Of a DNA stretch of 64,000 nucleotides, positions 6,881 through 62,489 are shown one piece after another. The notes beneath the pieces are model-generated. The model made no database searches. It saw only the letters and a program-made list of their open reading frames with translations, and had not been told where the DNA came from. A program made the translations under genes and the position numbers. The stretch spans positions 23,498,001 through 23,562,000 of the forward strand of contig CM059431.1 in NCBI GenBank assembly GCA_030390025.1. The letters are read 5' to 3'. The DNA is from Squalus acanthias (lineage: Eukaryota). The first letter of the stretch is position 1, and every line of letters starts with the position of its first letter.

Positions 6881-7040
6881 CATGATGCGGAGATGCCGGT
6901 GTTGGACTGGGGTGGACAAAAGTGAGAAGTCGCACAACACCAAGTCACTTCACCTGATGAAGGGGCAGCAGCTCCGAAAGCTTGTGAGTTCAAATAAAAC
7001 TGTTGGACTATAACCTGGTGTTGTGCGACTTCTCACTTTT
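6881..7040. mobile_element. Penelope-like element terminal (pLTR) remnant, family 1, with inverted tail
   Basis: Same sequence as at 10241, 14717 and 62362; inverted segment 6918-6942 vs 7016-7040; 12-bp TSD tgcta(t/c)agagta. Confidence 0.8.
6950..6987 (+). ncRNA. Minimal type-I hammerhead ribozyme motif (PLE family 1)
   Basis: UCAC-CUGAUGA-A-GGGGC(AGCA)GCUCC-GAAA-GC-UU^GUGA: full core, stem I UCAC/GUGA, palindromic AGCU stem III; predicted cut after 6983. Confidence 0.82.
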
Positions 7041-8412
7041 GCTACAGAGTAAGTTGTTCCCAATCTGCACTAAATGAAGGCTGTGGTATTTCCCTCAGAG
7101 AGGGGAGAAAGTCTCAAGCAAGGGTCAAGCCTACTGGTACCTACCGACTCCTGGCAGGGGGCTACAGTGGTCACTGGGAGCAGGCCAAATTTCTGCCCTT
7201 TAAGCGGCAGAGCTCTGAAGGCCAAGTGGATCTGAAAATTGAGAATAACTTGCATGGAAAGATAACTATGTCAAAGAAAAATGGGACTTGTTGAAGAGTG
7301 AATTCCATTTTTTTTATATATTAAGAGATGCCAAAATCTTTAAGACGTCTGACAGAAATTGTAGAAAGCATTACAGTCAGTCATAATTGTAGGTCTTACT
7401 TACAGAAAAGGAATTGCTTAGTAGCAGAGTGCTACACTTTTATAATTTATTTAAAAAAAAAAAAATTGTATTTACCATACACAGGTAATGTAACCGCTTC
7501 TTATTTTCATGATTGAAGAGTCAGGTAACTCTTAACATTCAGTGCTTGGGTTACACAAGCCTGCAGAGAAAAAGGCAGATTACAATGCGGACCATGCACT
7601 GTCACATTAAAAGCTTAATCCATATTTCTGTAATTCAATTTGAACAAAACAAAATCTGTTTTTTTAACCCTTCACTGGTAGTGTTTGGTTCTTTTCTTTT
7701 TGGTTTTAAAGTGCTATAAACTCATTACATGTTTCAGGAGTGCATATAATTCATGCAATGCTGAAACCATAATAAGGTTGAATTCAGAAAAAAAATCAAT
7801 AAATATCTCACTATATATTGGGTTAAAGTACCATGTAATCTCCTTTCCCCCTCCGCCATCCTATTAAAAAAAAAACCCAAAACAAGCAAAACTTCACGGC
7901 GAAAAGTAATGTTCTCTGAATTTCTTTTTAAGTCCTTTGGATATGACAAACTATTTTGATTTTACAGATGAATGATATCATAGTTAGTGACCCCAGGTTC
8001 TAGTAAAGGTTTCCTGCCAGCGCTGTTTGTCCCTGATAAGAATCCTGCAGTTCAATTCTGTTTATCACAGGAAGTTCCTGTTAGGTGTGTTCCCATTCCC
8101 TTTTGTTCCCAGAGTCTCTCTGCACAATTCCATCATTGGAGAAACAATGCTAAGTAGACTATTCTACTGGCTGTTTTTTAAAAAAAAAATTAGTCCTGGA
8201 ACTTTCCACAGGCCATTCAGCTTATTATCCCAAAGAATGTTTAGTATTTTTATTTGCATTACTTTAGATCAGAATATGTTTACACTCGAGAGCTCAATAC
8301 GGATTTAGGATTGCGTCTATTTAGCCACACCACTTAAAAATAGGGAAAACTTATGGCTTGTGACCATAGGTATATATTTTTTAAATATTACTGTGATATA
8401 GAATTATTTTCA

Positions 8413-8877
8413 GTGTTAGCCGTGGCTCAGTGGGTAGCACTCTCGCCTCTGAGACAGAAGGTTGTGGGTTCAAGTCCCACTCCAGGGACTTGAGCACAAA
8501 AATCTAGGCTAACACGCCAGTGCAGTGCTGAGGGAGTGCTGCATTGTTGGAGGTGCCGTCTTTCGGATGAGACATTAAACTGAGGCCCCGTCTGCTCTCT
8601 CAGCTGGATGTAAAAGATCCCATAGTACTATTTCGAAGAAGAACCGGGTTCTCCCCGGTGTCCTGGCCAATATATATCCCTCAATCAACATAACAAAAAC
8701 AGATTATCTGGTCATTATTAGATTGCTGTTCGTGGGCGCTTGCTGCGCGCAAATTGGCTGCCGCGTTTCCTACATTACAACAGTGACTACGCTTCAGAAG
8801 TACTTAATTGGCTGTAAAGCGCTTTGGGACGTGCTGAGGTCATGAAAGGCGCTATATAAATGCAAGTCTTTTTCTTT
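8413..8877 (+). mobile_element. Full-length tRNA-derived Deu-domain SINE (SacSINE1/AmnSINE1-like)
   Basis: A box TGGCTCAGTGG, B box GGTTCAAGTCC, Deu-like core gaggtgccgtctttcggatgagac...aaagatcccat, L2-like tail aaaggcgctatataaatgcaagt. Confidence 0.88.
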
Positions 8878-9156
8878 TATTAAGCACTGATTTTTTTTTC
8901 AGTGTAAATAACTTGGAGTAATTGGTTCTCAGATGATTTATATGGATAAGTGACAGCGTATTATTTGTACCTTGCAATTTAAAAGATGAAGCTCTACAAT
9001 TGCCTTCAGTAAATAGAGTCAGATATTTTAAAAATTTGATTGCTTATTTGCACTGCTAGAATAGACTTAAGAAGGAATTCCCAAAAGGCAGGTTGCCGAG
9101 AACGTCCAGTTACATTTTGTCTGCACTGCAAGTTTCAGCAGGGCTGTGCTATACTA

Positions 9157-9478
9157 GCCAAGGCTTCTTCGGCAGCACCTCCCAAACCCGCGACCTCTAC
9201 CACCTAGAAGGACAGCAGGCGCATGGGAACACCATCACCTCCAAGTTCCCCTCCAAGTTACACACCATCCTGACTTGGAAATATATCGCCGTTCCTTCAT
9301 CGTCGCTGGGTCAAAATCCTGGTACTCCCTCCCTAACAGCACTGTGGGAGTACCTTCACCACAAGGACTGCAGCAGTTCAAGCAGCTCACCACCACCTTC
9401 TCAAGCGAAATTAGGGATGGGCAATAAGTGCTGGCCTTGCCAGCGACACCCACATCCCAGGAACGAATAAAAAAAAAA
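9157..9478 (+). mobile_element. LINE family B 3' end
   Basis: Near-identical to 2520-2918; ends in polyA. Confidence 0.88.
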
Positions 9479-9826
9479 CTAGCCTCTCTGCACCACTCTC
9501 CCCCATTTACTTTTCCATTTGCCACTGACTGCTGAATCTGTCAGTAGTAGTTCACAAGACCTATGAGAAAATAGGTGTCCCTTGTTGCCAGAACAAGGTA
9601 AGTTGGAGAGGTTAGATTTCCACATGTGGCAGGAGGACCGTGTGTTTGATGTCACCTGCACTTTTATAATACAAAAGCACCATTAAACAGTCAGGTTTTG
9701 CAAGTCCACCACCACCCTGCTTAGTTACCATTTGTTTTGAGATGCTGATTTAAAATTAAAGTTATGTATGCAAATTTTACCCTGCTGTCCAGGATGTTGA
9801 CTACTTACTTGGTCTCAAGCCAACAA

Positions 9827-10227
9827 TTTTTTTTTATTCGTTCATGGGATTTGGGCATCGCTGGCAAGGCCAGCATTTTATTGCCCTCGAGAAGGTGACG
9901 GTGAGCCGCCTTCTTGAACCACTGCAGTCTTGGCACAACTGAGTGACTTGCTAGGCCATTTAAGAGTCGACCACATTGCTGTGGGTCTGGAGTCACATAT
10001 AGGCCAGACCAGGTAAGGACGGCAGATTTCCTTCCCTAATGGACATTAGGGAACCAGATGTGTTTTTACGACAATAGTTTCATTACTAGTCTTTTTTTAT
10101 TCCAGATTTTTATTTAATTAACTGGATTTAAATTCCCCAGCTGCCGTGGTGGGATTTGAACTCATGTCTCCGGATCATTAGTCAGACCTCTGGATTCCTA
10201 GTCCAGTAACATAACCACTATGCTACC
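9827..10227 (-). mobile_element. tRNA-derived SINE sharing its 3' tail with LINE family B
   Basis: Minus-strand head gtagcatagtggttatg...gagttcaaatccc (A/B boxes); central gggaaggaaatctgccgtccttacctggtctggcc; tail gggcaataaaatgctggccttgccagcgatg...polyA. Confidence 0.82.
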
Positions 10228-10240
10228 CTACCTATTATAA

Positions 10241-10427
10241 AAATGAGAAATCGCACAACACCAGGTTATAGTCCAACAGTTTTATTTGAAATCACGAGCT
10301 TTCGGAGCGCTGCTCCTTCGTCAGGAAAGCTCGTGATTTCAAATAAAACTGTTGGACTATAACCTGGTGTTGTGCGACTTCTCATTTTTGTCCACCCCAG
10401 TCCAACACCGGCATCTCCGCATCATGG
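10241..10427. mobile_element. Fold-back PLE pLTR remnant, family 1
   Basis: 65-bp inverted arms 10239-10303 / 10325-10389 (1 mismatch); 13-bp direct repeat ctacctattataa at 10228 and 10428. Confidence 0.82.
10292..10328 (-). ncRNA. Hammerhead ribozyme motif with stem I disrupted by the inversion junction
   Basis: Minus strand UUUC-CUGACGA-A-GGAGC(AGC)GCUCC-GAAA-GC-UC^GUGA; core intact, 5' strand of stem I replaced. Confidence 0.6.
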
Positions 10428-11099
10428 CTACCTATTATAAGCATTCTTAACCCTTCTAAGGCAACTGCATGCCAAAACTTTCAGGTAAGCAGGTCAGTAA
10501 TTTTGAACCCCCCCCCCCGGGCTTCCCATAAATCCACTGGCCCCCTGTTGATTCATTGTTTCAGCTGAGCTCCATTATACATGTTGCTACATTGAAACTT
10601 ACGTTTGAAAAATATTCCAACAAGGCGTACTCTGTCAGAAATAAGAGATTCTAATAGATTTTGTAGACACGCTGCAGCTGAGATCTTGAACTCAAGGCTG
10701 ACACTGGCCTGCAAGTTGCGGATAAGAAATTAATATTTCAGAAATTGGAATCATGAGGTTTAATTGTAATTCTTTACTTAAGGGTTAAGATCAGCTGCAG
10801 TGTGGCTGCATAGCCTCTCTAAAGCTACAACAGATGTTCCCAGTACTCTACATTTGATCCTGATGTGCAAGCGGACTGTACCCAATTCGGAAGCCAGCCA
10901 TGTTTGTGAATTTGTAATATTTTTACTTCTAAGTAAGTTGAAACTGGGCTGGTTTGAATTTTTTGAAAATAGATGAAATTCCACCCACTGTCATTGAGAG
11001 TACTGTAAACAGAAACAGTTCACAACGAATTATAATTAATGTCATTGTGCTTTTTTTGATTTTTCAGGGTGAGGGGCAGGGATTATTTTTGTTTATGCA

Positions 11100-11196
11100 A
11101 TGAGTTATATGGAGTTAGGTCGCCAATCAGCCATGATCTCATTGAATGGCGGAACAGGCTCGAGGGGCTAAATGGCTTACTCCTGTTCCTATGTTC
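11100..11196 (+). mobile_element. CR1 3' tail fragment
   Basis: atcagccatgatctcattgaatggcggaacaggctcgaggggctaaatggcttactcctgttcctatgttc. Confidence 0.8.
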
Positions 11197-12289
11197 CAAT
11201 AATGATTGCTGATAAGCACTTCAGAAACTGAATAGGAGGGGTTACTGAATCCAACTTTGAGGAAGGGACCTAAGATTAGTGAGTATACAGTTGCTAACCC
11301 AGGATGCTTTAGATTCAACTGCGTATTAATTCAGCTCTTTTCATTGCCACTTTGGTAATATCATCTTCTTTAGGCATTTCTACCTGCGGCTCCAGGAGAT
11401 CACTGAACCAATACCCGCAGCCTGCGAGAGCTGCTCTCCCCATGTTACTTTTGCACATACCGTTGGTGATTATGGGCCTTGTTCAAAGGCCAGTGGGGAA
11501 AAAGGCACTTGTTTTCCATGCCTTTTCATTGTAACCCATGAAAAATCAATTCCCTGTACCATTAGGATCACAGAGGTTGGGTTGTTTATTTTTCACTGTG
11601 CCACCAGCCATGCTGTGCTATCTATGTAATCCATTATGTGAGAAGTAAAAAATGAGGCTTCTCTCGTCTCACTTCGTTAGTTCAGTGTATGATTTCCTGC
11701 AGTCCAAAAGAAACTTTTGGGCAACACCTACCACCATGCAAGTTTTAAAATGTATATTAATTTGTAAAGTGAGAGAGGCAAAATTATCTAACAATTGGAG
11801 AAAAAAGATCTTTTCCTAGCCAGGACTTCGGGGGGGGGGGGGGGGAGGTGGTTTGGACTTCTGCCCAAAGCTATTGCAAAGTCAGTGAGGCAGCTGCACC
11901 ACCCACTGAAAACAGGCATCAGGAGGTGGGGGCGCTAAAAGTAGTGTCCCGGCGAAGTTAGCACCCCAAAGTGGGGAGCGACTCAATTTTTCCCCCTTAC
12001 TCTTCCAGGCCCAACAAAGCTCTTCAGAAAATTTCTTGGCCTTTTATTGGGTAATCCTTTTAAGGCCACTCACAGCCTGACACAAATGGGGGGACGGCTG
12101 TTAAAATCACCTCCATTGAGTGACGTCGTTCCTTGCTTTCATAGTTTGTGCCCTGCAAGCCTCCTTCAGCAATCATGGGTGAGAACAATTGGTATTTCTA
12201 GAGTACAGCTAAAATATTTTTATGATTGACGTTTACGGTTAGAGAAGCCAAATAGAGATGTCCAACATAAACCACACGATCAATCTTAC

Positions 12290-12690
12290 GGTGTCAGTGG
12301 TAGCACACTCGTCTCTGAGTCAGAAGATTGTGGGTTCAAACCAAACTCCAGAGACTGCTGCACACAATCTAGGCTGACATTTCAGTGCAGTACTGAAGGA
12401 GTGCTGCACTGTTAGAACTGCTGTCTTTCGGATGACATGTTAAACCGAGGCCCTGTCTGCCCTCTCCGGTCGACATAAAAGATCCCATGGTGCTATTCGA
12501 AGAAGAGCAGGGGTGTACTTTCAGTTTCCTGACCAACATGTATCCTTCAACCAACATCACTAAGATAGATTATTTGGTCATTTTTCTCATTGCTGTTTGT
12601 GGGACCTCGCTGTATGTAAATTGGCTGCTGCATTTCCCTACATTACAACAGTGACGACACTTCAAAAGTACTTAATTGGACGTAAAGCCT
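12290..12690 (+). mobile_element. Diverged Deu-domain SINE
   Basis: Colinear with 8413-8877. Confidence 0.82.
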
Positions 12691-12842
12691 CTCAAGTAGC
12701 AGTAATAGAGACAGTGATACCTTGGGGAGAATTCCGTCTGAAACCTGTTAGAACAAGCTCCTTGTTTCTGTGGCAAGATGTAGATAGTTGGGTTTTTTCA
12801 CATTCCAAATGGGATCTGATGTTTGCTAATACAGTTGATATT

Positions 12843-14240: not shown

Positions 14241-14716
14241 TTCATCTTATGTTTTATAATTTTTATTGTGCTCAATTTGAAAACCAATGGTATGCAAATA
14301 TGCTGCAAAATTCACCACCAATCAAGCATGTAAAAAGTAATTTTAGTCCCAACATCTCCCCATTTTTGATACAATGAGGTGGAAAGCAGATGTTTGCCCT
14401 GCTTCCAAATTTCACTAAATAATTTCCTGCAATTTAGGAACTGACAAATGATGCCATTAGCACAAGATCACACGATACTTACAGATGGGGAAGGCCCATT
14501 TAAGTCATCCATCCAGAACAACCCTACACTTCCCCCATTATCGCATCTAGTTGTTTCTTAATTGATTCCAAGGCGTTTGGCACCATTACTCGGCCCAGAT
14601 ATCCATTTCAAGTATTGATCACTCTCTGTGTGAAGAGCTGACATATCAGTTATAAAGTTATCCTTTACTACTTTAAACCTGTGCCCCATTGTCCTACTCT
14701 CACCATTTAATTTAAA

Positions 14717-14900
14717 AATGAGAAGTCGCACAACACCAGGTTATAGTCCAACAGTTTTATTTAAAATTACGAGCTTTCGGAGCTGTTGCCCCTTCGTCAG
14801 GTAAAGGTACAATGAGGGAATCTATTACACAGTATATAAACACAGAAAGCAATTTGTCTGCAGAGATACAATCTTTCAGGGAGGCATTACATCAAATTTA
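14717..14900 (-). mobile_element. PLE pLTR remnant, family 1
   Basis: Shares aaaatgagaagtcgcacaacaccaggttatagtccaacag with the other copies; 12-bp TSD atttaatttaaa (14705, 14901). Confidence 0.8.
14767..14804 (-). ncRNA. Minimal type-I hammerhead ribozyme motif (PLE family 1)
   Basis: Minus strand UUAC-CUGACGA-A-GGGGC(AACA)GCUCC-GAAA-GC-UC^GUAA; stem I UUAC/GUAA. Confidence 0.82.
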
Positions 14901-15381
14901 ATTTAATTTAAAGTAGAATTCCAAATTAGCCTTTACCATGTCATTTACTATCTTGTATCCCTCTATACGATCACCCCCAAGATGCTTTGTTTCCAGTCTG
15001 GAAAAGCCCACGTCTCTCCAGTCTTTTTTCATAACTCAGACCCTTAATGCTGGGATCAGCCTCGTGGCTTTTCTCTGTAGTTTCCAGCATTTGAATGTCT
15101 CCCTTTTTTCTCAGCAACCAGAACTGATCACGATACTAAAGGTACGGCCTGACCCAAGCACTGTAGAGTTTGATCCCTACTTCTCTCTGACTTGTATTCT
15201 ACTGTTTTGGCAATCTAGTTCAACATTCTGTTGGCTCTGTATTAACATTTTAATTTCAGATGTGTTGTCTTTTAAGTTTTGCGTACACAATTATGACAAA
15301 ATAGTCATGTGTTTTTATAATTCTGATTATTGCTGTATGCCACATTGTAATTGTAAGCCTATTTTTTCCTTTGATTTCCAG

Positions 15382-16798: not shown

Positions 16799-16887
16799 AC
16801 ACATGGGCAACTCCAGCATGGCTCCTGGTGGGTTCTGAGAACAGCATTCCCCAAGGCTTTGTTGGTTGTCTACTCATTTTCTTATAA

Positions 16888-26297: not shown

Positions 26298-27754
26298 CTG
26301 GGAGGGAAAGGGGTGAAGGCAGAAGTGTGGGAAATAGGACATACACGGTCGAGGGCCCTGTCAACCACAGTGGAGGACATTCCTCGGTTGAGGAAAAAGG
26401 AAGACATATCAGAAGCACTGGTGTGGAAGGTGGCATCATCAGAACTGATGCGACGGAGACAGGGAAACTGGGAGAATGGAATAGAGTCCTTACAGGAAGC
26501 GGGGCAGGAGGAAGTGTAATCAAGGTAGCTGTGGGAGTCGGTGGGCTTATACTAGATATTGTTTGACAGCCTATCCCCAGAAATCGAGATAGAGAAGTCG
26601 AGGAAGGGAAAAGTCAGAGATGGATCATGTGAAGGCGAGGGAGGGGTGGAAACTGGAAGCAAAGTTGATGACATTTTCCAGTTCGGGACGAGAGCAGGAA
26701 GCGGCACTGATACAGTCATCAATGTACCGAAAAAAGAGCTGAGGGAGGGATCCTGAGTAGGACTGGAACAAAGGATGTTCCACGTATCCCACAAAAAGGC
26801 AGGCATAGTTGGGACCCATATGGGTTCCCTTAACGACACCTTTTATTTGGAGGAAGTGAGTGGAGTCAAAGGGAAAGTTGTTCAATGTAAGGACAAGTCC
26901 AGCCAGGCAGAGGACGGTGGTGGTGGATGGGGACTGGTACGGCCTCTGTTCAAGGAAGAAGCGGTGGGCCCTCAGTCTGTACTGGTGGGGGATGGAGATG
27001 TAGAGGGACTGGACGTCCATGGTGAAAAGGAGGTGGTTAGGGCCAGGAAACTTGAAACTGTTAAAGTGGCAGAGGGCATCGGAAGAGTCGCGGCTGTAGG
27101 TTGAAAGACACTGGACAAAGGGAGAAAAAATAGTCGAGATAGAAAGAATTAAGTTGCATGGGGCAAAAACAGGCTGAAACGATGGGCCTACCAAGATAGT
27201 CCTGGTTGTGGATCTTGCGAAGGAGTTAGAAGTGGGCCGTGTGGGGTTGGGGAACTATGAGATTGGAGGCAGTCGGGGGGGGGGGGGGAAGATCTCCAGA
27301 GGAGATGAAGGCACTGACGGTCTGGGAAACAATGATGTTCAGTGGTGGGGTAGTGGTACGGGGGAAGTAGGAGGAGGTGTCAGAGAGTTAGTGTTCAGCC
27401 TCCGCAAGGTAGAGAGGTCGGTTCGCCAAACAACAACAGCGCCGCCCTTGTCAGCATGTTTAATGACAACATTAGGGTTGGACCTGAAAGAACGGAGTTT
27501 TGCAGGTTCATAGGGTGGTAGGTTAGAGTGAGTGAGGGGAGTAGAGAAATTGAGACGGTCGATGTCATGCCGGCAGTTCCCAATGAAAAGGTCAAGAGAG
27601 GGTAAGAGGCCAGAGGGAGGGATCCAGGTGGAACGAGAATTCTGAAGACTGGAGAAAGGGCCCACTGTGCAGGGAAGACTCCTGGCCAAAGAAGTGGGCG
27701 CGGAGGTGAAGGCGACGGAAGAAGAGCTCAGCATCGCGTCGAGCTCGAAATTCA
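26298..27754 (-). mobile_element. Penelope-like element reverse transcriptase fragment (pseudogenised)
   Basis: IKHADKGGAVVVW, LFTMDVQSLYISIPH, QIKGVVKGTHMGPNYACLFVG, FRYIDDC, FLDFSISI: PLE RT motifs spread over several frames. Confidence 0.9.
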
Positions 27755-28959
27755 ATGTTTTGATTTTGCTGTCTACTTGGCAGCATTTGCTAAAATTGCC
27801 CCATAATACACTAGCCAAAGCAATGATGTCGTAGTATCGGAAGTTTGCAAGTAGGAGGCAACTTGGAAATTTGAAAACAATAATCCCGTCCTCTCAATGA
27901 GCACTCAGCTGGTGCATCCTAGTCTCATTCACCTCCATGAGATCAGCGCTTATTTGACAGACTCCCAGTTATCTGCTGAAGCAAAAGAGCAGCAACAAAC
28001 AGAACAATGGTAAATAACATGATTATCAATTGCATCTTTCTACTGTTTGCCAAGCACCTTCACCTCCTTCCTTTCCTTCAATCTGAAGTTCTGCTTTTCT
28101 TCTTGAACCATTTCTGTAAAAATTTCTAAAAGCTGTATTATAAAATGTAACGTACAGCAGCTTGAACAAATACCAATTTAAATAGCAGAATATTTTACAA
28201 CTTTATTTGATTTGCTCATTGCCTAATTTTTAGCAGGCTATTGAATGAAACGGTAGGCTAAATTTTAAAAAAGAACCAGGAGAGAACTGAACATATTAAG
28301 AAACATCACAATTTAAATCTGAGGCTGCACTTTTAGATCACTTTGGTATTTGTTATTAAACTCGGAGTACACTTTTGCCCCAAAGCAAGTTAGGATTGGG
28401 TGCCTATTAACACAAGAAATGGCAGTATAATTTGAACATCAAGCCTCAATCTGATACCGATCACACTAAGTGGTGCAAGACCCCTTGTAAAAGGTTGACA
28501 CCATTTTGAGTTCACACCCACAGCAGTATAAATCCTGTCTAATGTGAAGTCGCTTTTTAAAACTGCACAGGGAGCTATATGAAATGCTTTTAATGCGGGG
28601 GCTTAGTCAGGCACATGCAGTGTACATTCACATTTTAATCTCCTGAGAGGTGCAAATGAGTGCAGCCCCACGCGCCGCTCCTCAGTAACACTTTCCACTC
28701 TGATGTCTGGTTGCTGTGGGTGGGAATTCTCACAACGGTTTTGTGAGATTTCGCAAAATGCTGTGAAAATTCCTGTCCACTACAGCATTCCATCCTTCAG
28801 AGCAGCAGTAGGAAGACCCCGAGAGTGGCACTAAGAGGCAAGGGGAAGAATGCAACCCAAAACTGAGAGGAGAGGAGTGAAAAGTTCCAGCATGAAAGGG
28901 GAGAATTGTGCCAGTTTGAAATATGGATGAGAGGGAGAAGAGTCCCAAGATTAACAATG

Positions 28960-42865: not shown

Positions 42866-43425
42866 ATTGTATACTGTATTCGCTGCTCACGATGCAGTCT
42901 CCTCTACATTGGGGAGACCAAACGCAGATTGGGTGACTGCTTTGCGGAACATCTCCGTTCAGTCCGTAAGGGTGACCCCGAGCTTCCGGTCGCCTGTCAC
43001 TTTAATTCTCCGCTCCACTCCCACTCTGACCTCTCTGTCCTCTGTTCCAATGAAGCTCAACATAAGCTCGAGGAACAGCACCTCATCTTTTGATTAGACA
43101 CTTTACAGCCTTCTGGACTCAACATTAAGTTCAACAATTTCAGACTATAACCCTGCCACCCCCCCCCCCTTTTTTTCAGGCGGCGGCTGTTGATGATTCT
43201 GCCATCCCCATTTGCAACATGTAATCTCTCCTGCCTTCAAATCTAGCACAGACCGTCCCTTTAGTTCCTCCCCCCCCCCCCCCCCCCGCACCTGCTTAAA
43301 ACCTGTTACATCTCCAACTTTTACCAGTTCTGACGAAGGGTCACAGACCTGAAACGTCAACTCTGTTTCTCTCTCCACGGATGCTGCCTGGCCTGCTGAG
43401 TGTTTCCAGCATTTTCTGTTGTTAA
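42866..43425 (+). mobile_element. Penelope-like element 3' fragment, family 2: GIY-YIG endonuclease remnant + pLTR
   Basis: Translates VYCIRCSRCSLLYIGETKRRLGDCFAEHLRSV...HKLEEQHLIF*LDTLQPSGLNIKFNNFR; 13-bp TSD ttcaaaat(g/t)actt. Confidence 0.88.
43326..43362 (+). ncRNA. Minimal type-I hammerhead ribozyme motif (PLE family 2)
   Basis: AGUU-CUGACGA-A-GGGUC(ACA)GACCU-GAAA-CG-UC^AACU; stem I AGUU/AACU, palindromic ACGU stem III, GUC cleavage triplet (cut after 43358). Confidence 0.82.
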
Positions 43426-44560: not shown

Positions 44561-44601
44561 GTAAGAGGGGCTGAGAGCTCGGAACAGGCCGGCAAACAGA
44601 C

Positions 44602-45215
44602 GTGAGAGACCCAGAGCCGGACTGTCAGACAGAGAGAGACCAGAGAGAGAGAGAGAGAGCGAGAGCCGGACTGTCAGACAGAGAGACCAGAGAGAGAGAG
44701 AGACCCAGACTGTCAGACAGAGAGACCAGAGAGAGAGAGAGACCCAGACTGTCAGACAGAGAGACCAGAGAGAGAGAGACCCAGACTGTCAGACAGAGAG
44801 ATCAGAGAGAGAGAGACCCAGACTGTCAGACAGAGAGAGAGAGAGACTAGAGAGAGAGAGAGACCCAGACTGTCACAGAGAGAGACTAGAGAGAGAGAGA
44901 GACTAGAGAGAGAGAGACTAGAGAGAGAGAGAGAGAGAGACCCAGAGCCGGACTTTCAGACAGAGAGAGACTAGAGATAGAGACCCAGACTGTCACAGAG
45001 AGACTAGAGAGAGAGAGAGACCCAGACTGTCACAGAGAGACTAGAGAGAGAGAGACCCAGACTGTCAGACACAGAGAGACTAGAGAGAGAGACAGAGACC
45101 CAGACTGTCAGACAGAGAGAGTCCAGAGAGAGAGACCCAGAGCCGGACTGTCAGACAGAGAGACTAGAGAGAGAGAGAGCCAGAGCCGGAGAGTCAGACA
45201 GAGAGACCCAGACAG
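44602..45215 (+). repeat. GA-rich minisatellite (~37-39-bp unit cccagactgtcagaca(ga)n-cca/cta-(ga)n)
   Basis: About a dozen degenerate units directly visible. Confidence 0.93.
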
Positions 45216-45629
45216 TCGGTGCCAGCTGGAAGTACGGTCCAAGTGACAAAATAGGTCCGAATTTTTTAAAGATACCGAATTATAAATAGCGCCTTTCAGA
45301 ATTTTTTTGATAAACTGAATGATTGGCACAATCTTCAATAGGAAATCCTGATTTTATTGATCATTTTTACTATTTCGTGAGAGATTGGCAGCACCTTTGA
45401 AGTAGCTTATATTAAATTTCTGTTACTTATTTACACTTCTATTCAGTTGTATTTAGTTCTTATGCTTTGTTTAACTCGATTTTGTTTAAGTTATGCATTT
45501 TGTCCGGTTGTGATTTCCTCAGGGTTGTGTTTGTGTGGAACGGATAGCATTGCAATAATCATGAGGCTTTGAGTATGAGAAAAGACATGAAGAGTGAGGA
45601 GAAACCGAGTTCGCACACCAGTGTTCGGA

Positions 45630-46504: not shown

Positions 46505-46756
46505 TTCAACAGTATATAAAGAAGTTGAAGCAATGTGGTTGCGACGATATTCGAGCAAGGCTAGAATGTTGCCTTAGGAAAGTAGCGATTTTAATTCCCA
46601 CTGTACTGCAATGTATGCAGGTAGCCAAAATATTGCATCTGTTGTGTGACTAACAATTAGGAAATATTGGTTTAGTTACTCCAACAGCTGTTTTATTACG
46701 GACAACTTCTACAAAGTATAAAATACAGCGCGAATGAAGGAAATCCCATACATTCT

Positions 46757-48505
46757 GGGATAATGGGACTCAAGGCGGATAAATCACCTGGACCTGATGG
46801 CTTACATCCTAGGGTCTTGAGGGAAGTGGCGGTAGGGATTGTGGATGCATTGGTAATAATTTTCCAAAACTCCCTGGACTCAGCAAAGATCCCGGCAGAC
46901 TGGAAAACTGCTAATGTAACACCCTTATTTAAAAAGGGCAGTAGACAGAAGGCTGGAAACTATAGACCGGTTAGCCTAACATCTGTGGTAGGTAAAATTT
47001 TGGAGTCCATTATTAAGGAGACAGTAACGGGACGTTTGGATAATCATAATTTAATAGGACAAAGTCAGCATGGTTTTATGAAGGGGAAGTCATGTTTGAC
47101 AAATTTGCTGGAGTTCTTTGAGGAAGCAACATACAGGGTGGATAAAGGGGAACCAGTGGATGTGGTGTATTTAGACTTCCAAAAGTCATTTGACAAGGTG
47201 CCACACAAAAGATTATTGCTTAAGATAAAAAATCACGGGATTGGGAGTACTATTCTGGCATGGATAGAGGATTGGCTATCTAACAGAAGGCAGAGAGTTG
47301 GGATAAATGGTTTATTCTCAGACTGGCAATCAGTAACTAGTGGTGTTCCGCAGGGGTCAGTGCTGGGTCCCCAACTCTTTACAATCTATATTAACGATTT
47401 GGAGGAGGGGACCGAGTGTAACATATCAAAGTTTGCAGATGATACTAAGATGGGAGGGAAAGTAGTGAGTGAGGAGGACATAAAAAATCTGCAAGGGGAC
47501 ATAGACAGGCTAAGTAAGTGGGCAGAGATTTGGCAGATGGAATACAATACTGGAAAGTGTGAGGTTATGCACTTTGGCAGGAAAAATAGTAGAGCAAGTT
47601 ATTATCTTAATGGCAAGAAACTGGAAAGTACTGAAGTACAAAGGGATCTGGGGGTCCTGGTGCACGAAACTCAAAAGGTTAGTATGCAGGTGCAGCAAGT
47701 GATTAAGAAGGCCAATGGAATGTTGGCTTTCATTGCTAGGGGGATAGAATACAAAAATAGGGAGGTATTGCTTCAGTTGTACAGGGTATTGGTGAGACCG
47801 CACCTGGAATACTGCATACAGTTTTGGTGTCCATACTTAAGAAAAGACATACTTGCTCTCGAGTCAGTACAAAGAAGGTTCACTCGGTTAATCCCGGGGA
47901 TGAGGGGATGGACATATGAGGAGAGGTTGGGTAGATTGGGACTCTACTCATTGGAGTTCAGAAGAATGAGAGGCGATCTTATTGAAACATATAAGATTGT
48001 GAAGGGGTTGGATCGGGTGGATGCGGGGAGGATGTTCCCAATGATGGGTGAAACTAGAACTAGGGGGCATAGTCTTAGAATAAGGGGCTGCTCTTTCAAA
48101 ACTGAGATGAGGAGGAACTACTTCACTCAGAGGGTGGTTGGTCCATGGAATATGCTGCCCCAAAAAGCTGTAGAAGCTACATCATTACATAAATTTAAAA
48201 CAGAAATAGTCAGTTTCCTAGGAGTAAAGGGAATTAAGGGTTACGGGGAGCGGGCAGGAATTTGGACATGAGTCTAGGTTCGGATCGGTCATGGCCCTGT
48301 GGGTAGCGTAGCGGGCCCAGGGGCCGTGCAGCCTGATCCTGCTCCTATTTCGTGTGTCCAATTCTGTTAGGTTCAGGAGATGGTTCTGTGATAGTAGATT
48401 GGCGGTTAGGATCAGATCAGCCATGATCTTATTGAATGGCGGAGCAGGCTCGAGGGGCCAATTGGCCTACTCCTGCTCCTATTTCTTATGTTCTTATGTT
48501 CTTAT
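46757..48505 (+). mobile_element. 5'-truncated young CR1 LINE with an uninterrupted RT ORF (46763..48271, 502 aa)
   Basis: KSPGPDG, NYRPVSLTS, QHGFMKGKSCLTNL, YLDFQKSFDKVPH, GVPQGSVLGP, KFADDTK; tail ends in (ttcttatg)n. Confidence 0.96.
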
Positions 48506-51240: not shown

Positions 51241-51441
51241 GCCCTGACCAGTGCCAAGAACATGGTGTGACAACCCCTAAAGTGGAATGCAATGCAAAAA
51301 CCATCTCAGTGCTGTTGAACTGCCTTTCTGACTAATGTACATCCAAAACCACTTCACTTGCAAGCTGGCTGTATAATTGGCCCATAAACGCAAACATTTT
51401 GTGAAATAAATCTAAATGTAATATCCTCTCTTTTATTGTAG

Positions 51442-52392
51442 CTGTTTTTGCCGAAGTCAAATATCGACTTTCAAGACAACCTTGGCATGTGGCTCTGAGC
51501 AACCAGACCGTTCATGTTGACTTCAAAGGACTGAACAACGCAAGCGCACAAAATTTAACTGTGTCACTGGTAGACGTGAGGAGAAACCAAACTATCGCCA
51601 CAAAACTGATCCCTGGAAACCGATCCCAGGGCTCTGTGGAGTTTGAGTGCTTTCATTTCAATTACGCTGGCAACTTTGAGTTTAGAGTCACAGATTTCAC
51701 AAGCAACGGCACCATCCAGTGGACAACTGACTTATTGCACGTCGAATGGCCAGTCTTTCACACTGAAGTGGAAAGGAAACCTGACTCACAGAGCAACTTC
51801 CAAATCGAAGTATTTACTCACGAGTATTTATGCCCCTGGAAAGTAAATAGGTTGACGTTATTTCTGGATGTTACAAGGATTGATTTTAATGAACCTGGAA
51901 CTTATAACACCGACAAAGTGTTAAAGAAAACGATAAATAAAGAAATTGAGCTGTCTAATTCCCAGTGGGTGGTGTTTGATTGCAATGATTTCAGCGAAGA
52001 CGCGTTCATAAAGATTTCGCTGAGATCCCCGTGTACCAATTCAGTGATCTCCTCAAAAGGACCGCTGGTGTTTGCCCAAATCGTTGGGTATAAACTGCTT
52101 GTTGATCATTTGAGAGCGGCTACATGTGAATCGTCTGCAGAGGTTCGGATAGTGACACCACCTTGCGCCCGTGCACAAGGCAAGATTTCTGTGTATAAAA
52201 TCCAGAAAGGCGCTCCCTTCAGAAGATTTGTAGCTGAAAGGTGGCTGCGCCCCAGGGATAACAAGACCGAATTCAACTGCTCTGTGTTTGACACTGGGAA
52301 AAATAACTACTGCTTCGAGTATGTTAGCATTCTGAATCACAGCCACACTTCCACCAAAGTTGTAAACTGTGTCACGCTTCACAGACACGCAG
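51442..52392 (+). CDS. THSD1: THSD1 large ectodomain exon
   Basis: TAG acceptor; (A)VFAEVKYRLSRQPWHVALSNQTVHVDF...VEWPVFH...FNCSVFDTGKNNYCF...; donor G|GTTCGT; 951 nt, phase 1/1. Confidence 0.95.
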
Positions 52393-52766
52393 GTTCGTAT
52401 TACTCCTGGATTTCCCTTTCTGTTACTTTATTGACCCACTTAATTTAAAAAAAAGTTTTTTTTTCTCTCTCCAAGAAACTACGACTGTTGCCAGGATATG
52501 AGAACATACTGCACAGTGATAAATGTATAATAATTTATATAAAATTAATGGATTGCGTATACAAGTAAGAAAATTATATTTATCAATTCCTTGAACCACC
52601 ATATAATTTCCTACATTGGTTTAATAACTGGTCCGTGACTATCCAAAAGAGATAAGTGTAGAGTATTAATGTTGAAATACCTATTTCAAACAAAAAATAC
52701 CATGTTGATGTACTTCAATCAAAGTTAATGTTTGAAATAGTTTGTCATCCCAAGAATAGTTACATT

Positions 52767-55904: not shown

Positions 55905-55960
55905 ACATAGACACTCACACATGCACGCACACGCACACACACACGCACAAACACACACAT
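55905..55960 (+). repeat. Imperfect (CA)n microsatellite
   Basis: cacacatgcacgcacacgcacacacacacgcacaaacacacaca. Confidence 0.85.
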
Positions 55961-57061: not shown

Positions 57062-57245
57062 GCCCATAATTATTCAATCAACAACTTGCAGTATTGTATC
57101 TAGAGACTTGTTCAACCATAAATATTTTCAAGAAATATTAGGCAGGAGGATACAAAGAAAACATTCAGTGTCAATAGACAAAGCATGTTCATTTTAATAT
57201 GTACAAAGAGAAAAGTAAAATAACAATATTTTTTGCTGTCTGTAG

Positions 57246-57404
57246 AAAGAGGGAGTGTTTGGTTGTCTTGGAGTCCATGTAGCGTCACTTGTGGTGACGG
57301 AGTGCGTGAAAGGTACCGACAATGTGTTGCAGCTGTCTCAGGGGCAATTGGCTGTAGTGAGGAAGAGAAAGAAGTTTCTCACTGTTCACTTGTGGATTGC
57401 ACGG
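57246..57404 (+). CDS. THSD1: THSD1 thrombospondin type-1 repeat exon
   Basis: TAG acceptor; (E)RGSVWLSWSPCSVTCGDGVRERYRQCVAAVSGAIGCSEEEKEVSHCSLVDCT + G; GTAAGT donor; 159 nt; six Cys, CSVTCG and RxRxR motifs. Confidence 0.96.
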
Positions 57405-58007
57405 GTAAGTAAATCCATCAAATGTAAATGTTCCACCTCAGAAAATATTCACCGCTGTCGCGCGTTTGCCTTATCTCTTTTTCTTGTTCGCTTACATGCA
57501 TTGTATTTATAGAATGGTAGAGGTGATGGAAGAGCAGGATAGTGTTCAATGAGCTACTGTAATAGGGAACTCAATACTGATAAACATGGGCAATGAACTA
57601 CGCAGGATGATAATGTTAATAGAGTTGCAAATTCATTGTTTTTTAGAGACCAAGGTAAGAGCTATAGAATGAAGGGATATTGAACTAATGAAAAGGAAAG
57701 GGAGATAAACCAATCATGGGATTACTCGTGGAAACAGATGGTATTGTTGACAGATGTTGGTGGATCTAATGATGGAATATAAAAGTACAGTGGCTAAGTT
57801 TAAAATGACAAGTGCAAAGGTTGCTCTAGTTTGCTTACAGTGCTATTTGGCCATGGAAAGAATGAGCTTTATAATTGATTTCAGTGAGTGGTTTTAAAAT
57901 TGACTTTGAAGATAAATAGAGAGCTTTCTTGGGTAGAAAGTAGTACTCCCGCTTATATAGTTCTTTATCACATCACTCAAACATCTCAAAGCACTTCACA
58001 TAGAATA

Positions 58008-58406
58008 AAGAAAAGAAAGACTTGCATTTTTATAGCGCCTTTCACGACCACCGGACGTCCCAAAGTGCTTTACAGCCAAGGAAGTACTTTTTGAAGTGTA
58101 GTCACTGTTGTAATGTAGGAAACGCGGCAGCCAATTTGTGCACAGCAAGTTCCCACAAACAGCAATGTGATAATGACCAGATAATCTGTTTTTGTTTTGT
58201 TGATTGAGGGATAAATATTGGCCAGGACACCGGGGATAACTCCCCTGCTCTTCTTCGAAATAGCGCCATGGGATCTTTTACGTCCACCTGGGAGGGCAGA
58301 CGGGGCCTCGGTTTAACGTCTCATCTGAAAGACAGCACCTCCGACAGTGCAGCACTCCCTCAGCACTGCACTGGAGTGTCAGCCTAGATTTTTGCGCTCA
58401 AATCTC
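58008..58406 (-). mobile_element. Deu-domain SINE (head missing)
   Basis: Reverse complement colinear with 8490-8877. Confidence 0.88.
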
Positions 58407-58629
58407 TTGTAATAATGAATTACTCTTAAGTGCAGTGGTTGTATTATGCAGGAAAACATGGCCGCTATTTTGCACATAGCAAGCTACCCACTGGATGAGG
58501 TGTGTAAGTGGCACTAAATTAATTGTGCCCCAGTATAAGCTAGCATATTCAGGAAAGGAGGAGGAGAAAATTCAAAGGAAAAAAACCTGAAAATAATAAA
58601 AAAGAATAAACTACTTGAATATGAGGAGA

Positions 58630-58990
58630 ATCATAGAATCATACATCACAGAAGGAGGCCATGGGGCCCATCGTGCCTGTGCTGGCTCTTTGAAAGAGCT
58701 AACCAATTAGTCACACTCCCCTGCTCTTTCCCCATAGCCGTGCAATTCTTTCTTTCTCAATTATATATCCAATTCCCTTTTGAAAGTTATTATTGAATCT
58801 GCTTCCACCACCCTTTCAGGCAGCGCATTCCAGATCATAACAACTCGCTGCGTAACATTTTTTATCCTCATCTCCCCCCTGGTTCTTCTGCCAATAATCT
58901 TAAATGTGTGTCCTCTGGCCACACCTGCCAGTGGAAATAGTTTCCCCCTATTTACACCATCAAACCCCACATAATTATCAAACCTCGATT
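58630..58990 (-). mobile_element. CR1 3' fragment
   Basis: TQRVVMIWNALPERVVEADSIITFKRELD peptide and tail. Confidence 0.82.
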
Positions 58991-59137
58991 AAATCTCAAT
59001 TTGACTTCATGTGCTCAGCATATTTGGTAACATATTCAGCTGCACTGTCTGAAAATCTTTTGATTTTAATTACTTCTTTTTTAGTCAAGACAGGCAATCG
59101 CATCAAATCCTGCCACAGACTCATTAAGTAGGTTTGT

Positions 59138-59537
59138 ATTCCCTCGAGTGCAGAAGATTAAGGGATTATCTAATTGAGTTGTTTCAGATGCTTAAATGAG
59201 TTGATAGGGTAGATTGAGAGAAACTATTTCCTTTGGTTGTGGAGTCCAGAACAAGGGGGCATAACCTTAAAATGAGAGCTAGGCCGTACAGGGGAGATGT
59301 CAGGAAGCAATTCTTCACACAATGGGTAGTGGAAATCTGAAACTCTTATCCACAAAAAGCTGTTGAGGCCAGGTCAGTTGAAAATGTCAAAACTGAGATT
59401 GATAGATTTTTGTTAGGTAAGGGTATTAAGGGTTACGGAACCAAGGCGGGTAGATGGAGTTAAGGTCAGCCATGATTTAATTGAATGGCGGAAGGGGCTC
59501 GAGGGGGCTGAATAGCCTACTCCTGTTCCTGTGTTCC
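59138..59537 (+). mobile_element. CR1 3' fragment
   Basis: Similar to 1620-2003; ends ~50 nt before the THSD1 last-exon acceptor. Confidence 0.85.
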
Positions 59538-59585
59538 TAAAAAGTGCTATTTTTACTTAAGTGTTCAATTTCTTTCATGTTACAG

Positions 59586-61129
59586 AACAGAAATCTGGAG
59601 CTCCTGGAACAGTTCAAAATGAAGCATATAAAACAGGCAATATAGTGATGATCACAGGAATTTCTCTCTGTTTGGTGATAATCGTTGCCACCATTGCTAT
59701 CACTATACGGACAAAACTATCATGTAAGGCACAGAATTGCAATACTGCAGCGAGACAGGGTTCAGTACCTCCACACAACTTCAGGAAAACCCCTGAGGGC
59801 GAAAGGAACTTCTGCGACCTCAGTCACCAACGTGACATTTTAGCTGACAATGTGCCCCCGCTTCATGTAGAAGATGGTATGAGTATCCCTTTAGCTTTCA
59901 GGAGGAGCCAGCATTTCATTCCAAATCAGGACACACTAACTGAGGAAAACCTAGGACCGCAAAGCACCCAGAAAGTGATCCCTCCTATATTTGGATACCG
60001 TTTGGCACATCAACAATTGAAAGAAATGAAAAAGAAAGGGATAACGGAAGCAACTCAAGTGTATCATGTAACACAGCATCCACTAGATGACACAATCGTT
60101 AATGAAGGAGGAGCCCAGACTACAGAAGTAGCTCACGCTGAATCCAGCACTGTTACAGCGCCCTCTTTGGACAAGGAAAACAATGCGGAAGGTAACATGA
60201 ACAGATTTCGTATTAAATCTCCATTTTTGGATCAAAAATCGATTTACTACAAACAACAAGCAGAAAAAGCGAATCATAGAATGGATTTTATGATTGCACC
60301 ATTTCCAGAACAATTTAGTGACTTTTTCCTATCGTGCCAAACGCCACAAATAAGCAGTGCTGTACCTATCTGTGAAGGAAACAATAAAACACTTCCAATT
60401 AGGCCAGGAAAGCTCAGGCATTGCGAAAGGCTAACGGAGATAGAAATGCATGAAAGAGGATATGGCAGGAATCCTAACTTTAGGAGGACGTCTAGCTTCA
60501 ATGAATGCAAAACCGGGAAGTTCTACAGGGAAAGAAGTATGTCCACTTGTACACAGAAGCTTCCATCCCTATCACACTCCAGAGCTATTTGTAGGGCAGC
60601 AACTGTGACTGACAGATCCACTGGTGACAAGACTGCAGCGCAGTCCAGATTTAATAATGCTAGCTCAGCAAAGCCTCATGTCCGGAATTGCAGTGCATTC
60701 ACATCAGAGACCTCAAAATATCATATGAAAAGTAGTCAAACTGGAGCTCGAACTGGTAAAGCTGAGCTGGCAAGTGATCAGCCAATAACAAATGGTGTTG
60801 TTAATAACTTAGAAACCTATACAGGCAAAAGAAGGTCGAGCACACCAACTAACCGATATAAATTAACTCCTAAAGTCAGTGATCCCAACCCTGAGAAACA
60901 ATCTAATTGGAGGTACCCAAGGAGCAATCCATTGCCTCGCCATCAGTACAGACAAGATCGGTGTCAAAGTTTCCCTTCGGATCCAAACTTTCTTCTGTAT
61001 GACAATTCTGGTTTTGAGTTAACTGCTTCAGAGCAGCGGATAATTGATATGCCGGCCCATTTTAGTTCACATGTGAAAGAGGACGAAGAGGACGCTAGTA
61101 CTTTAAGCAATGAAAAGCTGGTGATCTGA
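59586..61129 (+). CDS. THSD1: THSD1 last coding exon (TM helix + cytoplasmic tail)
   Basis: CAG acceptor; NIVMITGISLCLVIIVATIAITI (TM); QKVIPPIFGYRLAHQQLKEMKKKG, FRIKSPF, FRRTSSF, CQSFP, STLSNEKLVI*. Spliced CDS 2724 nt = 907 aa. Confidence 0.97.
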
Positions 61130-61810
61130 GAAGCTTGAAAAAAGAAACCTTTCACGTCCGTGTAAAATAATTGTTCATCATGTCTTAATCCAAGTGCACC
61201 TATTACTACTGCTTGTAAAAGTGAATTTGTTTTGCTAACAGTGAGGAGGCAGTTTCCATAGGTTTGTACTTAGGCTACGAATCACATTTTCTCTTCGGAA
61301 TGAGGATGGTTCCAGAGGCAAGAAACCACCATTTCTTTTCTGTCCGCCCATTATGTTGACTTTACCTTCCCCAACTTTGAGTTCTATAGAGGGTTACAAT
61401 CCGATCTCAGTTTTTTGATGCACCATAGCAATGGAGGGAGCTAAATTTTAGGGAATTTTTTTTCGGACAAGTGGGCTTATTTCCACATCGAGTTCGGAGC
61501 CAAGCCAGGTAGGCCCATGAAAATTTTGCGCTGTATTTAAAAAAAAAACTTTCCTGAAAACAATTGGAGGATGGACTGTTAATCTACTGAGGATATACTC
61601 AACCACGCGTGCTACTGATATTAATGTCTAAGCACAGTGGTACTTTAAATATTCAAATAACCTTATTGATGCGCAAGATGTTTGTTGAATTTCTGTGCAT
61701 ATGTGCACGTCGGTGGTCTATGTACATGTTTATAGGTTTTAAATATACAGTTGTGTTTCTACACGGTGACCTTCATTTAAAGAAATGAATTCTAAGCTGC
61801 AAAGTTCTCA

Positions 61811-61816
61811 AATAAA
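61811..61816 (+). terminator. Candidate THSD1 polyadenylation signal
   Basis: First AATAAA I found after the stop, ~680 nt downstream. Confidence 0.55.
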
Positions 61817-62361
61817 TGTGATACTTTTAAAGCTGTGATTTCCAATGACATTATTAGACACAAAAGACATGCTTTGTTAGGGCTCTGTTCTCTGAATCTT
61901 AAATCAAATCCTAAAACCAACACATCTACAAATCAATAACCTCTGTCCACCTGGTGTGCAGTAGGAGTACTGAATACAATCTGGATGAGGAGTTGGAGGA
62001 CATCTTTATGGTGACACACTTGGGTGCATACCTCCAATAGGTTCTGTGAGGAATAGTTAAATATTCTATAACATACCTATTTTAATAATTGAACTCCAAC
62101 TATACCTCAAAATTGTTACACCTTTTGGTCCTCTGACTTTAGTTTTTTGTACATTCCCCTCTCTTTTCCTTACTGTAGATCCTTTAATTGCCTTGGACCT
62201 GCTGTCAGGTACTCCCCCCCGCAAAGCCCTTTGCTTCTCTACTTCCCTCATCTCCTTTAAATGTCTTCTCAAACCTTTTCTTTTTGACCAGGCTTTCAGT
62301 CGCACTTCCTAATATTTCCTTCCATGGCTCAGCGTCTGTTTCTCTGTCTATTTCCATTTGT

Positions 62362-62489
62362 AACTTTACCTGACGAAGGGGCGACAGCTCCGAAAGCTTG
62401 TAATTTTAAATAAATCTGTTGGACTATAACCTGGTGTTGTGCGACTTCTCATTTTTGTCCACCCCAGTCCAACGCCGGCATCTCCGCAT
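62362..62489 (+). mobile_element. PLE pLTR remnant, family 1
   Basis: Matches 10325-10427; perfect 13-bp TSD tatttccatttgt (62349, 62490). Confidence 0.85.
62366..62403 (+). ncRNA. Minimal type-I hammerhead ribozyme motif (PLE family 1)
   Basis: UUAC-CUGACGA-A-GGGGC(GACA)GCUCC-GAAA-GC-UU^GUAA; predicted cut after 62399. Confidence 0.82.

What the first reader, a model, noticed from the sequence alone, without database searches (positions are those of the whole stretch)
6950..62403. A dispersed family of minimal hammerhead ribozymes whose stems show compensatory changes within this window
Seen: four short TSD-flanked insertions (6950+, 10292-, 14767-, 62366+) carry CUGANGA-A-stemII-GAAA-GC-UH-stemI. 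Variation falls only where a hammerhead tolerates it. Stem I is UCAC/GUGA in one copy and UUAC/GUAA in two (C-G to U-A double change). Stem II toggles between G.U and A-U. The loop varies (AGCA/AGC/AACA/GACA), N7 is U or C, and H17 is U or C but never G. Established: PLE terminal repeats carry minimal type-I hammerheads whose palindromic stem III is thought to need dimerisation. Inference: the ribozyme was under selection in at least two active subfamilies, and these 130-190-bp insertions may be a non-autonomous ribozyme-bearing mini-element rather than random truncations.
Basis: partly seen in the sequence, partly recalled or inferred. Interest (0 to 1): 0.72.

Follow-up and report, generated by a model that had tools for sequence, protein, structure and literature searches.

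The report
Penelope retroelement stubs carrying minimal hammerheads
The four short insertions are cut-off end pieces of a very abundant Penelope-type jumping gene whose small self-cutting-RNA motif is a known feature; what they add is that the motif's base pairs are kept across tens of thousands of copies and that many short copies stop where the element's RNA is predicted to begin.

Summary
In detail: four TSD-flanked insertions (128-187 bp) carry a minimal type I hammerhead motif. Copy 2 lacks the 5' strand of stem I. They are not a separate mini-element. Copy 4 is identical over all 128 bases to the 3' pseudo-LTR plus tail of a full-length Neptune-type Penelope-like element (3,041-bp unit, intact 892-aa ORF). 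Thirty insertions in a 1.16-Mb sample run from 77 to 1,877 bp, and copy 2's junction occurs only 6 times genome-wide. Selection on the fold is supported: of 58,804 exact motifs, the variable stem I pair is C-G 35,408, U-A 21,017, U.G 1,995 and C.A 384; N7 takes all four bases. This is one compensatory pair, and such covariation is published (PMC4209133). Truncation is not random: 14 of 31 arms that reach the ribozyme core stop within 20 nt upstream, none in the next 40 nt, near a TATA/Inr-like motif. Short copies are likely run-off cDNAs from the RNA's 5' end. 94 of 105 inverted insertions have one tail; about one in eight joins two subfamilies. Cleavage is untested. The scan has noted such elements many times on other DNA.

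The parts
6881..7039 (.). Copy 1, 159 bp: inverted tailed arm (about 6881-6945, - strand) joined head-to-head to a tail-less arm (about 6944-7039, + strand)
   Evidence: TSD 6869-6880 / 7040-7051 (12 bp, 1 mismatch)
6950..6987 (+). Minimal hammerhead motif of copy 1 (stem I UCAC/GUGA, N7=U, loop AGCA, H17=U at 6983)
10241..10427 (.). Copy 2, 187 bp fold-back: tail-less arm with the ribozyme core (10241-10328, -) and tailed arm starting at G12 (10325-10427, +)
   Evidence: TSD 10228-10240 / 10428-10440 (13 bp)
10292..10324 (-). Hammerhead core of copy 2; the 5' strand of stem I is missing (junction)
14717..14900 (-). Copy 3, 184 bp, single tail-less arm that keeps about 100 nt of 3' UTR with the TATA-like box (about 14833-14838) and Inr-like motif (A at 14813)
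   Evidence: TSD 14705-14716 / 14901-14912 (12 bp)
14767..14804 (-). Minimal hammerhead motif of copy 3 (UUAC/GUAA, N7=C, loop AACA, H17=C)
62362..62489 (+). Copy 4, 128 bp, single tailed arm, identical to the 3' pseudo-LTR plus tail of the full-length element in L178 (6289-6416)
   Evidence: TSD 62349-62361 / 62490-62502 (13 bp)
62366..62403 (+). Minimal hammerhead motif of copy 4 (UUAC/GUAA, N7=C, loop GACA, H17=U at 62399)
62456..62489 (+). Optional tail of about 35 nt; in full-length copies it runs up to the ATG of the ORF

Best explanation
The four insertions are 5'-truncated end pieces of an autonomous Penelope-like retrotransposon (Neptune-type by motif), and the hammerhead motif is part of that element's pseudo-LTR, where selection on the source elements likely kept its fold. 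Shown: the parent has a 3,041-bp unit with one 892-aa ORF, direct pseudo-LTRs and often an inverted arm; insertions end at two fixed 3' points about 35 nt apart (without and with tail); inverted insertions nearly always carry exactly one tail and a 11-14-bp duplication. Inferred: the element's protein nicks both target strands and primes reverse transcription from each nick at one of two internal sites beside the start codon, as shown in vitro for an anole Poseidon element; the two cDNAs join through short homologies. Inferred, about even odds: the common short class arises when priming occurs on the RNA's 5' pseudo-LTR and the enzyme runs off the RNA start 7 or 13 nt upstream of the ribozyme core. 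The ribozyme probably cuts only as a dimer or with protein help, and most copies were made from uncut RNA.
For: Full-length intact ORFs in L178 and L182 with RVT_1; copy 4 identical to L178:6289-6416; tandem ORF-pLTR-ORF in L128 and L137. Lengths 77-1,877 bp, median about 217, for 30 insertions in 1.164 Mb. One tail in 94 of 105 inverted pairs, 12 of 13 in the random blocks; exact 11-14-bp TSD in 79 of those 94. Stem I pair counts C-G 35,408, U-A 21,017, U.G 1,995, C.A 384 (99.3% paired, C.A expected 13,026 if independent). In 32 motifs found by a downstream anchor, N7 is C18 G11 U2 A1 and 8 loop II types occur, while 9 of the 13 core and palindrome positions are invariant. 5' ends: 14 of 31 arms reaching C3 stop at -20..-1, 0 of the other 17 at -60..-21 (p=7e-4). 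TATA-like boxes 25-33 nt before an Inr-like motif recur in diverged subfamily UTRs; short arms reach further in subfamilies whose Inr lies at -13 than at -7 (medians 8.5 and 5, n=26 and 32, p=0.009). Literature: PMC4209133, PMC11167929, PMC8557442, PMC3846280.
Against: The covariation is one base pair; subfamilies descend from each other, so the 2x2 table reflects few events. The fourth pair of stem I is C.A in 8 of 32 unbiased motifs. The 45 nt downstream of the ribozyme are as conserved as the core, so conservation alone does not prove catalysis. Pfam does not recognise the GIY-YIG domain; that and the clade rest on motifs read by eye, with no tree. The RNA start is predicted only: ends scatter, some pass the Inr (6 of 32 and 5 of 26), 16 of 47 arms end inside or below the ribozyme, and 45 of the 58 short arms come from pattern loci, many chosen for short spacing. 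The anole element's start sites lie inside the ORF, here the tail ends at the ATG.
Confidence: 0.8

Rival explanations
1. A non-autonomous, ribozyme-bearing mini-element (SINE- or retrozyme-like) with its own short master, mobilised in trans by the Penelope protein.
For: 18 of 30 random insertions are 250 bp or shorter; 5' ends pile up; short copies that keep the promoter-like motif (copy 3) could be transcribed; L090 holds two fold-backs with one junction 1.4 kb apart; discordant arms may be commoner in the shortest pairs (5 of 14 against 1 of 22, p=0.024).
Against: No shared junction at scale (6 and 3 copies genome-wide, with different subfamily variants and tail polarity); short copies carry the haplotypes of long ones, copy 4 is identical to an intact element; 5' ends spread over about 20 nt; none of the four is a tandem array; the short-pair excess of discordance was not repeated in a second set (3 of 14 against 6 of 54, p=0.38).
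Confidence: 0.08
2. Plain random 5' truncation, with the pile-up caused by reverse-transcriptase stalling or microhomology joining at the hammerhead helices rather than by the RNA start.
For: Junctions favour short homologies: 12 of the first 51 very short fold-backs join exactly at the AGCU palindrome (read by eye). 16 of 47 arms end inside or below the ribozyme.
Against: A stall should fall at the 3' foot of a helix, not after it has been copied; it would not shift with the Inr position between subfamilies or leave -21..-60 empty.
Confidence: 0.3
3. The motif is kept as an RNA structure (protein-binding site or dimerisation signal) and rarely or never cuts; the catalytic core is a by-product of that role.
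For: Most arms read through the predicted cut site; no peak of 5' ends at the site among very short fold-backs (6-7 of about 100 arms at the site, 4-8 one base upstream, by eye). Ribozyme mutants did not change insertion in vitro in PMC11167929; minimal hammerheads cleaved weakly even as dimers in PMC4209133.
Against: N7, the one free base of the CUGANGA box, varies among subfamilies while its neighbours do not, and H17 was never G in 32 unbiased or 176 parsed motifs: the pattern that catalysis demands. Three insertions have both arms starting at the cut site (two, one).
Confidence: 0.25
4. Inverted insertions whose arms belong to different subfamilies arise after insertion, by gene conversion or by deletion between two neighbouring copies, not from two RNA templates.
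For: In some pairs only stem-loop II differs (L010); one candidate pair (L289) proved to be two separate insertions; palindromes are prone to breakage (recalled).
Against: 9 of 11 discordant pairs fetched have one exact 11-14-bp TSD around both arms and one tail; partner arms keep the same GUAA or GUGA lineage, whereas conversion from the pool would often bring in the majority GUGA type.
Confidence: 0.3

Closest known systems
Minimal hammerheads (min-HHR) in pseudo-LTRs of metazoan Penelope-like elements (Cervera and de la Pena 2014, PMC4209133; parts 1-2 of 4 read)
   Same: [quoted passage not shown]
   Different: At least 58,804 exact motifs here against about 4,000 (coelacanth) and 9,000 (Xenopus) reported there; no shark in the parts read; no 5'-end analysis there.
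EN+ Penelope-like elements, Neptune clade, with inverted 5'-truncated copy and one-sided 30-40-bp tail (PMC8557442, PMC3846280; passages)
   Same: Single RT-EN ORF, CX4CX2C linker motif, partial tandems, inverted arm, tail at one end, long TSD; a TATA plus Inr-like motif in the pseudo-LTR was noted for Pen2a_Av.
   Different: Here the tail rule, TSD length and 5'-end pile-up are counted on many young copies; clade not tested by a tree.
PAc, Poseidon element of the green anole (Frangieh et al. 2024, PMC11167929; parts 1-2 of 4 read)
   Same: Two internal priming sites that define the tail; both target strands extended; hammerhead in the pseudo-LTR not needed for insertion in vitro.
   Different: In PAc the ORF starts within the ribozyme and priming is 111-118 nt into the ORF; here the ribozyme lies about 120 nt upstream of the ATG and the tail ends at the ATG.
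Animal non-LTR retrozymes (PMC7229834, passages; bioRxiv 10.64898/2026.07.22.740005, part 1 of 5 and passages)
   Same: Short, non-coding, type I hammerhead, related to PLE pseudo-LTRs, found also in a chondrichthyan.
   Different: Retrozymes are head-to-tail arrays with a ribozyme per unit; these copies are single or head-to-head and match the ends of an ORF-bearing element.

Membership tests
EN+ Penelope-like element | Single ORF with reverse transcriptase | tested here: met
   892-aa ORF in L178 and L182, RVT_1 above cut-off
EN+ Penelope-like element | C-terminal GIY-YIG endonuclease with CCHH motif | tested here: inconclusive
   Motifs read by eye in the translation; no Pfam or PDB hit
EN+ Penelope-like element | Pseudo-LTRs from partial tandems | tested here: met
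   Direct repeats 3,041 bp apart in L178; ORF end-pLTR-ORF start in L128, L137
EN+ Penelope-like element | Inverted 5'-truncated copy and 30-40-bp tail at one end only | tested here: met
   94 of 105 inverted pairs have one tail; the 4 with two include an internal tandem pLTR
Neptune clade | CX2-5CxxC motif between RT and EN | tested here: met
   CX4CX2C in the L178 and L182 translations; definition from PMC8557442. Shared with Nematis.
Neptune clade | Placement in an RT phylogeny | not tested
   No reference PLE sequences were fetched
Minimal type I hammerhead of PLEs | Core CUGANGA / GAAA / UH, extra base after A9, G10.1-C11.1, palindromic 15.2-16.2 | tested here: met
   features from PMC4209133
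Minimal type I hammerhead of PLEs | Covariation in stems across families | tested here: met
   One two-sided pair in stem I with a U.G intermediate subfamily, one one-sided pair in stem II; few independent events
Minimal type I hammerhead of PLEs | Self-cleavage after H17 as a dimer or with protein | not testable with these tools
   Only contigs were served for RNA runs; no peak of arm ends at the site
Non-LTR retrozyme | Head-to-tail array with a hammerhead in each unit | tested here: not met
   The four copies are single or inverted; arrays elsewhere in the genome were not searched for
Non-autonomous mini-element (SINE-like) | Own master: one shared 5' end and private variants, discrete length | tested here: not met

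The most novel reading that the evidence does not exclude
Penelope-like elements insert with two RNAs at once: a dimeric enzyme holds two transcripts, paired through the hammerheads' palindromic stem III, primes one at the tail site and one at the tail-less site from the two target nicks, and most often copies only the 5' pseudo-LTR up to the capped RNA start, like a retroviral strong-stop DNA. The ribozyme dimer would then be a template-pairing device, and the tens of thousands of short copies a map of the promoter and of two-template events.
Probability: 0.2. Interest if true: 0.65.

Novelty: new member of a known kind. Interest (0 to 1): 0.3.

Why it matters
The ribozyme and the layout are known, so the finding as written is ordinary. 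The value is in scale: a young family with roughly 96,000 insertions (30 in 1.164 Mb scaled to 3.7 Gb; rough) and intact source copies gives countable footprints for open questions on Penelope-like elements: where the RNA starts, whether both target ends are primed, whether one or two RNAs are used, and what the hammerhead does. The subfamily-specific shift of 5' ends and the mixed-arm insertions give direct tests.

Tried and rejected
Rfam: no hammerhead family matched. Pfam on the C-terminal 141 aa and PDB on the whole ORF gave nothing; the protein atlas gave no result. Public RNA-labelled runs were contigs only and cannot show starts, cuts or strand; the element's end is present in contigs of three coded organisms laid, not shown to be transcribed. 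Monomer folds and homodimer co-folds do not single out the hammerhead dimer; not informative. A self-propagating fold-back mini-element was rejected on junction counts of 6 and 3. A peak of 5' ends at the predicted cut site was looked for and not found (the pattern excludes arms ending downstream of the site, so only upstream neighbours could be compared). An excess of mixed arms in short pairs was seen in one set (p=0.024) and not in another (p=0.38). My first reading, a smooth length distribution, was dropped. Lunse et al. 2017 (dimer cleavage) is not held; I saw only its reference line and the summary in PMC6765202. Searches for prior print: Penelope + shark + hammerhead ribozyme, 1 review, listing only; Penelope + strong-stop + retrotransposon + hammerhead, 0; two-template terms, 3 unrelated listings; promoter terms, 3 listed. 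No supplements were opened; those of PMC4209133 and of the preprint may list shark families.
Full report
Observation. The hammerhead pattern hits the window 5 times against 0.73 expected, and 0 of 100 shuffles reach 5; the fifth hit, at 43330, has an ACGU palindrome and belongs to another family. Each insertion has a 12-13-bp target-site duplication, and the inserts measure 159, 187, 184 and 128 bp. Copies 1 and 2 are head-to-head pairs of arms; copies 3 and 4 are single arms. Copy 2 has lost the 5' strand of stem I at its junction and folds into a different hairpin. Rfam has no match.

What they are. The window is G000:C7:23498001-23562000 in a 3.7-Gb genome, shark-like by its repeats (recalled, and so called in earlier notes). 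Copy 4 retrieved 40 places at 99-100% identity, of 616 candidates. In most of the 30 loci fetched, the shared sequence runs on upstream for variable lengths into the end of an ORF. A search with an N-terminal piece found full-length copies: L178 and L182 each hold an intact 892-aa ORF, and L178 has direct repeats 3,041 bp apart plus an inverted arm. Pfam finds RVT_1 but not the endonuclease; by eye the translation shows the DKG motif, a CX4CX2C linker and GIY-YIG and CCHH-like motifs, which PMC8557442 (passages) gives for the Neptune and Nematis clades. All 128 bases of copy 4 are identical to L178:6289-6416. Copies 1 and 3 likewise match families whose members extend upstream. The tail of about 35 nt ends at the ATG of the next unit.

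Mini-element or truncation. I took 11 blocks chosen without regard to the element except the window itself, 1.164 Mb in all. They hold 32 matching pieces, which are 30 insertions after joining two split ones, of 77 to 1,877 bp: 18 up to 250 bp, 7 of 251-600, 5 longer. That scales to about 96,000 insertions (rough). The junction of copy 2 occurs 6 times in the genome and a second one 3 times, with differing subfamily variants and tail polarity. There is no short master.

The 5' ends are not random. The script placed 44 arms; I corrected two artefacts (copy 3 matched itself, one arm over-extended) and added three arms that the anchor missed, giving 47. Relative to C3: 16 end at 0..+50, 14 at -20..-1, none at -60..-21, 7 at -199..-61 and 10 run beyond -200 (Fisher p=7e-4 for 14 of 31 against 0 of 17). 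Subfamily UTRs have diverged, yet each keeps a TATA-like box 25-33 nt before an Inr-like motif whose A lies 7 or 13 nt upstream of C3 (read by eye). Short arms reach further in the -13 lineages (median 8.5, n=26) than in the -7 lineages (median 5, n=32; p=0.009); 45 of these 58 arms come from pattern loci, many chosen for short spacing, and 6 of 32 and 5 of 26 pass the Inr. A promoter in the pseudo-LTR is known for Penelope (PMC2377424, passages), and a TATA plus Inr-like motif was noted in an Adineta element (PMC3846280, passages). I infer that short copies are run-off cDNAs primed on the 5' pseudo-LTR of the source RNA. I did not find this in print or in the scan's notes under those words, though note e1-9987643 reports the fixed start on another genome.

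Selection on the fold. Exact genome-wide counts for the variable stem I pair are C-G 35,408, U-A 21,017, U.G 1,995 and C.A 384: 99.3% paired, with 13,026 C.A expected under independence. The U.G class is mostly one subfamily, that of copy 2, in the 100 rows listed, which fits a path through a wobble; C.A looks like scattered later mutation where the partner arm could be seen (L266). In 32 motifs located by a downstream anchor and allowed up to 3 mismatches, N7 is C18 G11 U2 A1, loop II has 8 forms, H17 is U25 C7, 9 of 13 core and palindrome positions are invariant, and G12 is A in 4, at a CpG. Against: this is one two-sided pair among related subfamilies, the outer stem I pair is C.A in 8 of 32, and the sequence downstream is equally conserved. 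PMC4209133 (parts 1-2 of 4) already reports covariation in such families, single motifs on truncated copies, and weak cleavage only as dimers.

Mechanism. Of 105 inverted pairs, 94 have one tail, 4 have two (one arm being an internal tandem repeat) and 7 none; of the six of these seen in the cut output, two are cut by the locus edge and one has a partly deleted tail. An exact 11-14-bp duplication was found in 79 of the 94. This fits priming from both target nicks at two internal sites, as shown in vitro for PAc (PMC11167929, parts 1-2 of 4), where ribozyme mutants did not affect insertion. Arms of one insertion sometimes carry different subfamily variants: 6 of 36 pairs on C1:1-9.08 Mb (read by eye, after dropping one pair that proved to be two insertions) and 9 of 68 by a crude rule, two pairs being common to both sets and at least one a probable private mutation. 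Nine of 11 such pairs fetched share one exact duplication and one tail. Two RNA templates are the simplest reading; later conversion is not excluded. Very short fold-backs (931 matches, about 465 insertions) join most often at the AGCU palindrome, 12 of the first 51, and show no clear peak at the predicted cut site (by eye), so most templates were probably uncut.

Verdict. A new member of a known kind: truncated ends of an active Neptune-type Penelope-like element with its minimal hammerhead. The selection claim is moderately supported, the mini-element claim is not, and the best new lead is the pile-up of 5' ends at a predicted promoter. The scan's notes hold 189 findings with these words in at least 16 genomes and several on mixed arms.

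Noticed in passing
window 43326-43362 (+): A fifth minimal hammerhead motif with an ACGU palindrome and a different stem II, after what reads by eye as the decayed end of a Penelope endonuclease ORF: a second PLE family.
   Followed up: partly
window 26625-27893 (-): Broken reverse-transcriptase frames of another Penelope-like element, 32% identical to the L178 protein over 176 aa.
   Followed up: partly
window 51405-52448 and 59561-61129 (+): Large exons of a THSD1-like gene (three THSD1 Pfam domains in the first; none in the second). Copy 4 lies about 1.2 kb beyond the end of the second frame, on the same strand.
   Followed up: partly
L090 (G000:C5:92762757-92765865): Two fold-back insertions 1.4 kb apart share one junction that occurs only 3 times in the genome, with different target duplications and loop variants.
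   Followed up: partly
L194-L195 region, G000:C12 and C14 blocks; C14 block 98766-98987 (G000:C14:30098766-30098987): A doubled fold-back on C14 in which two outer arms both start exactly at the predicted hammerhead cut site. The C12 block held only one insertion in 100 kb.
   Followed up: partly
L020, L034, L047, L054, L056, L084: Short arms joined to inverted pieces from distant parts of the ORF, i.e. template jumps within the element during insertion.
   Followed up: no
L267 (G000:C1:13371998-13375033): An inverted pair of element ends encloses an unrelated G+C-rich inverted repeat, probably nested insertions.
   Followed up: no
window 44564-45223: Tandem array of a 39-nt purine-rich unit.
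   Followed up: no
window 4296-6731 (-) and 46676-48271 (+): Two LINE reverse-transcriptase fragments in opposite orientation, about 79% alike; CR1-type by recalled motifs.
   Followed up: no
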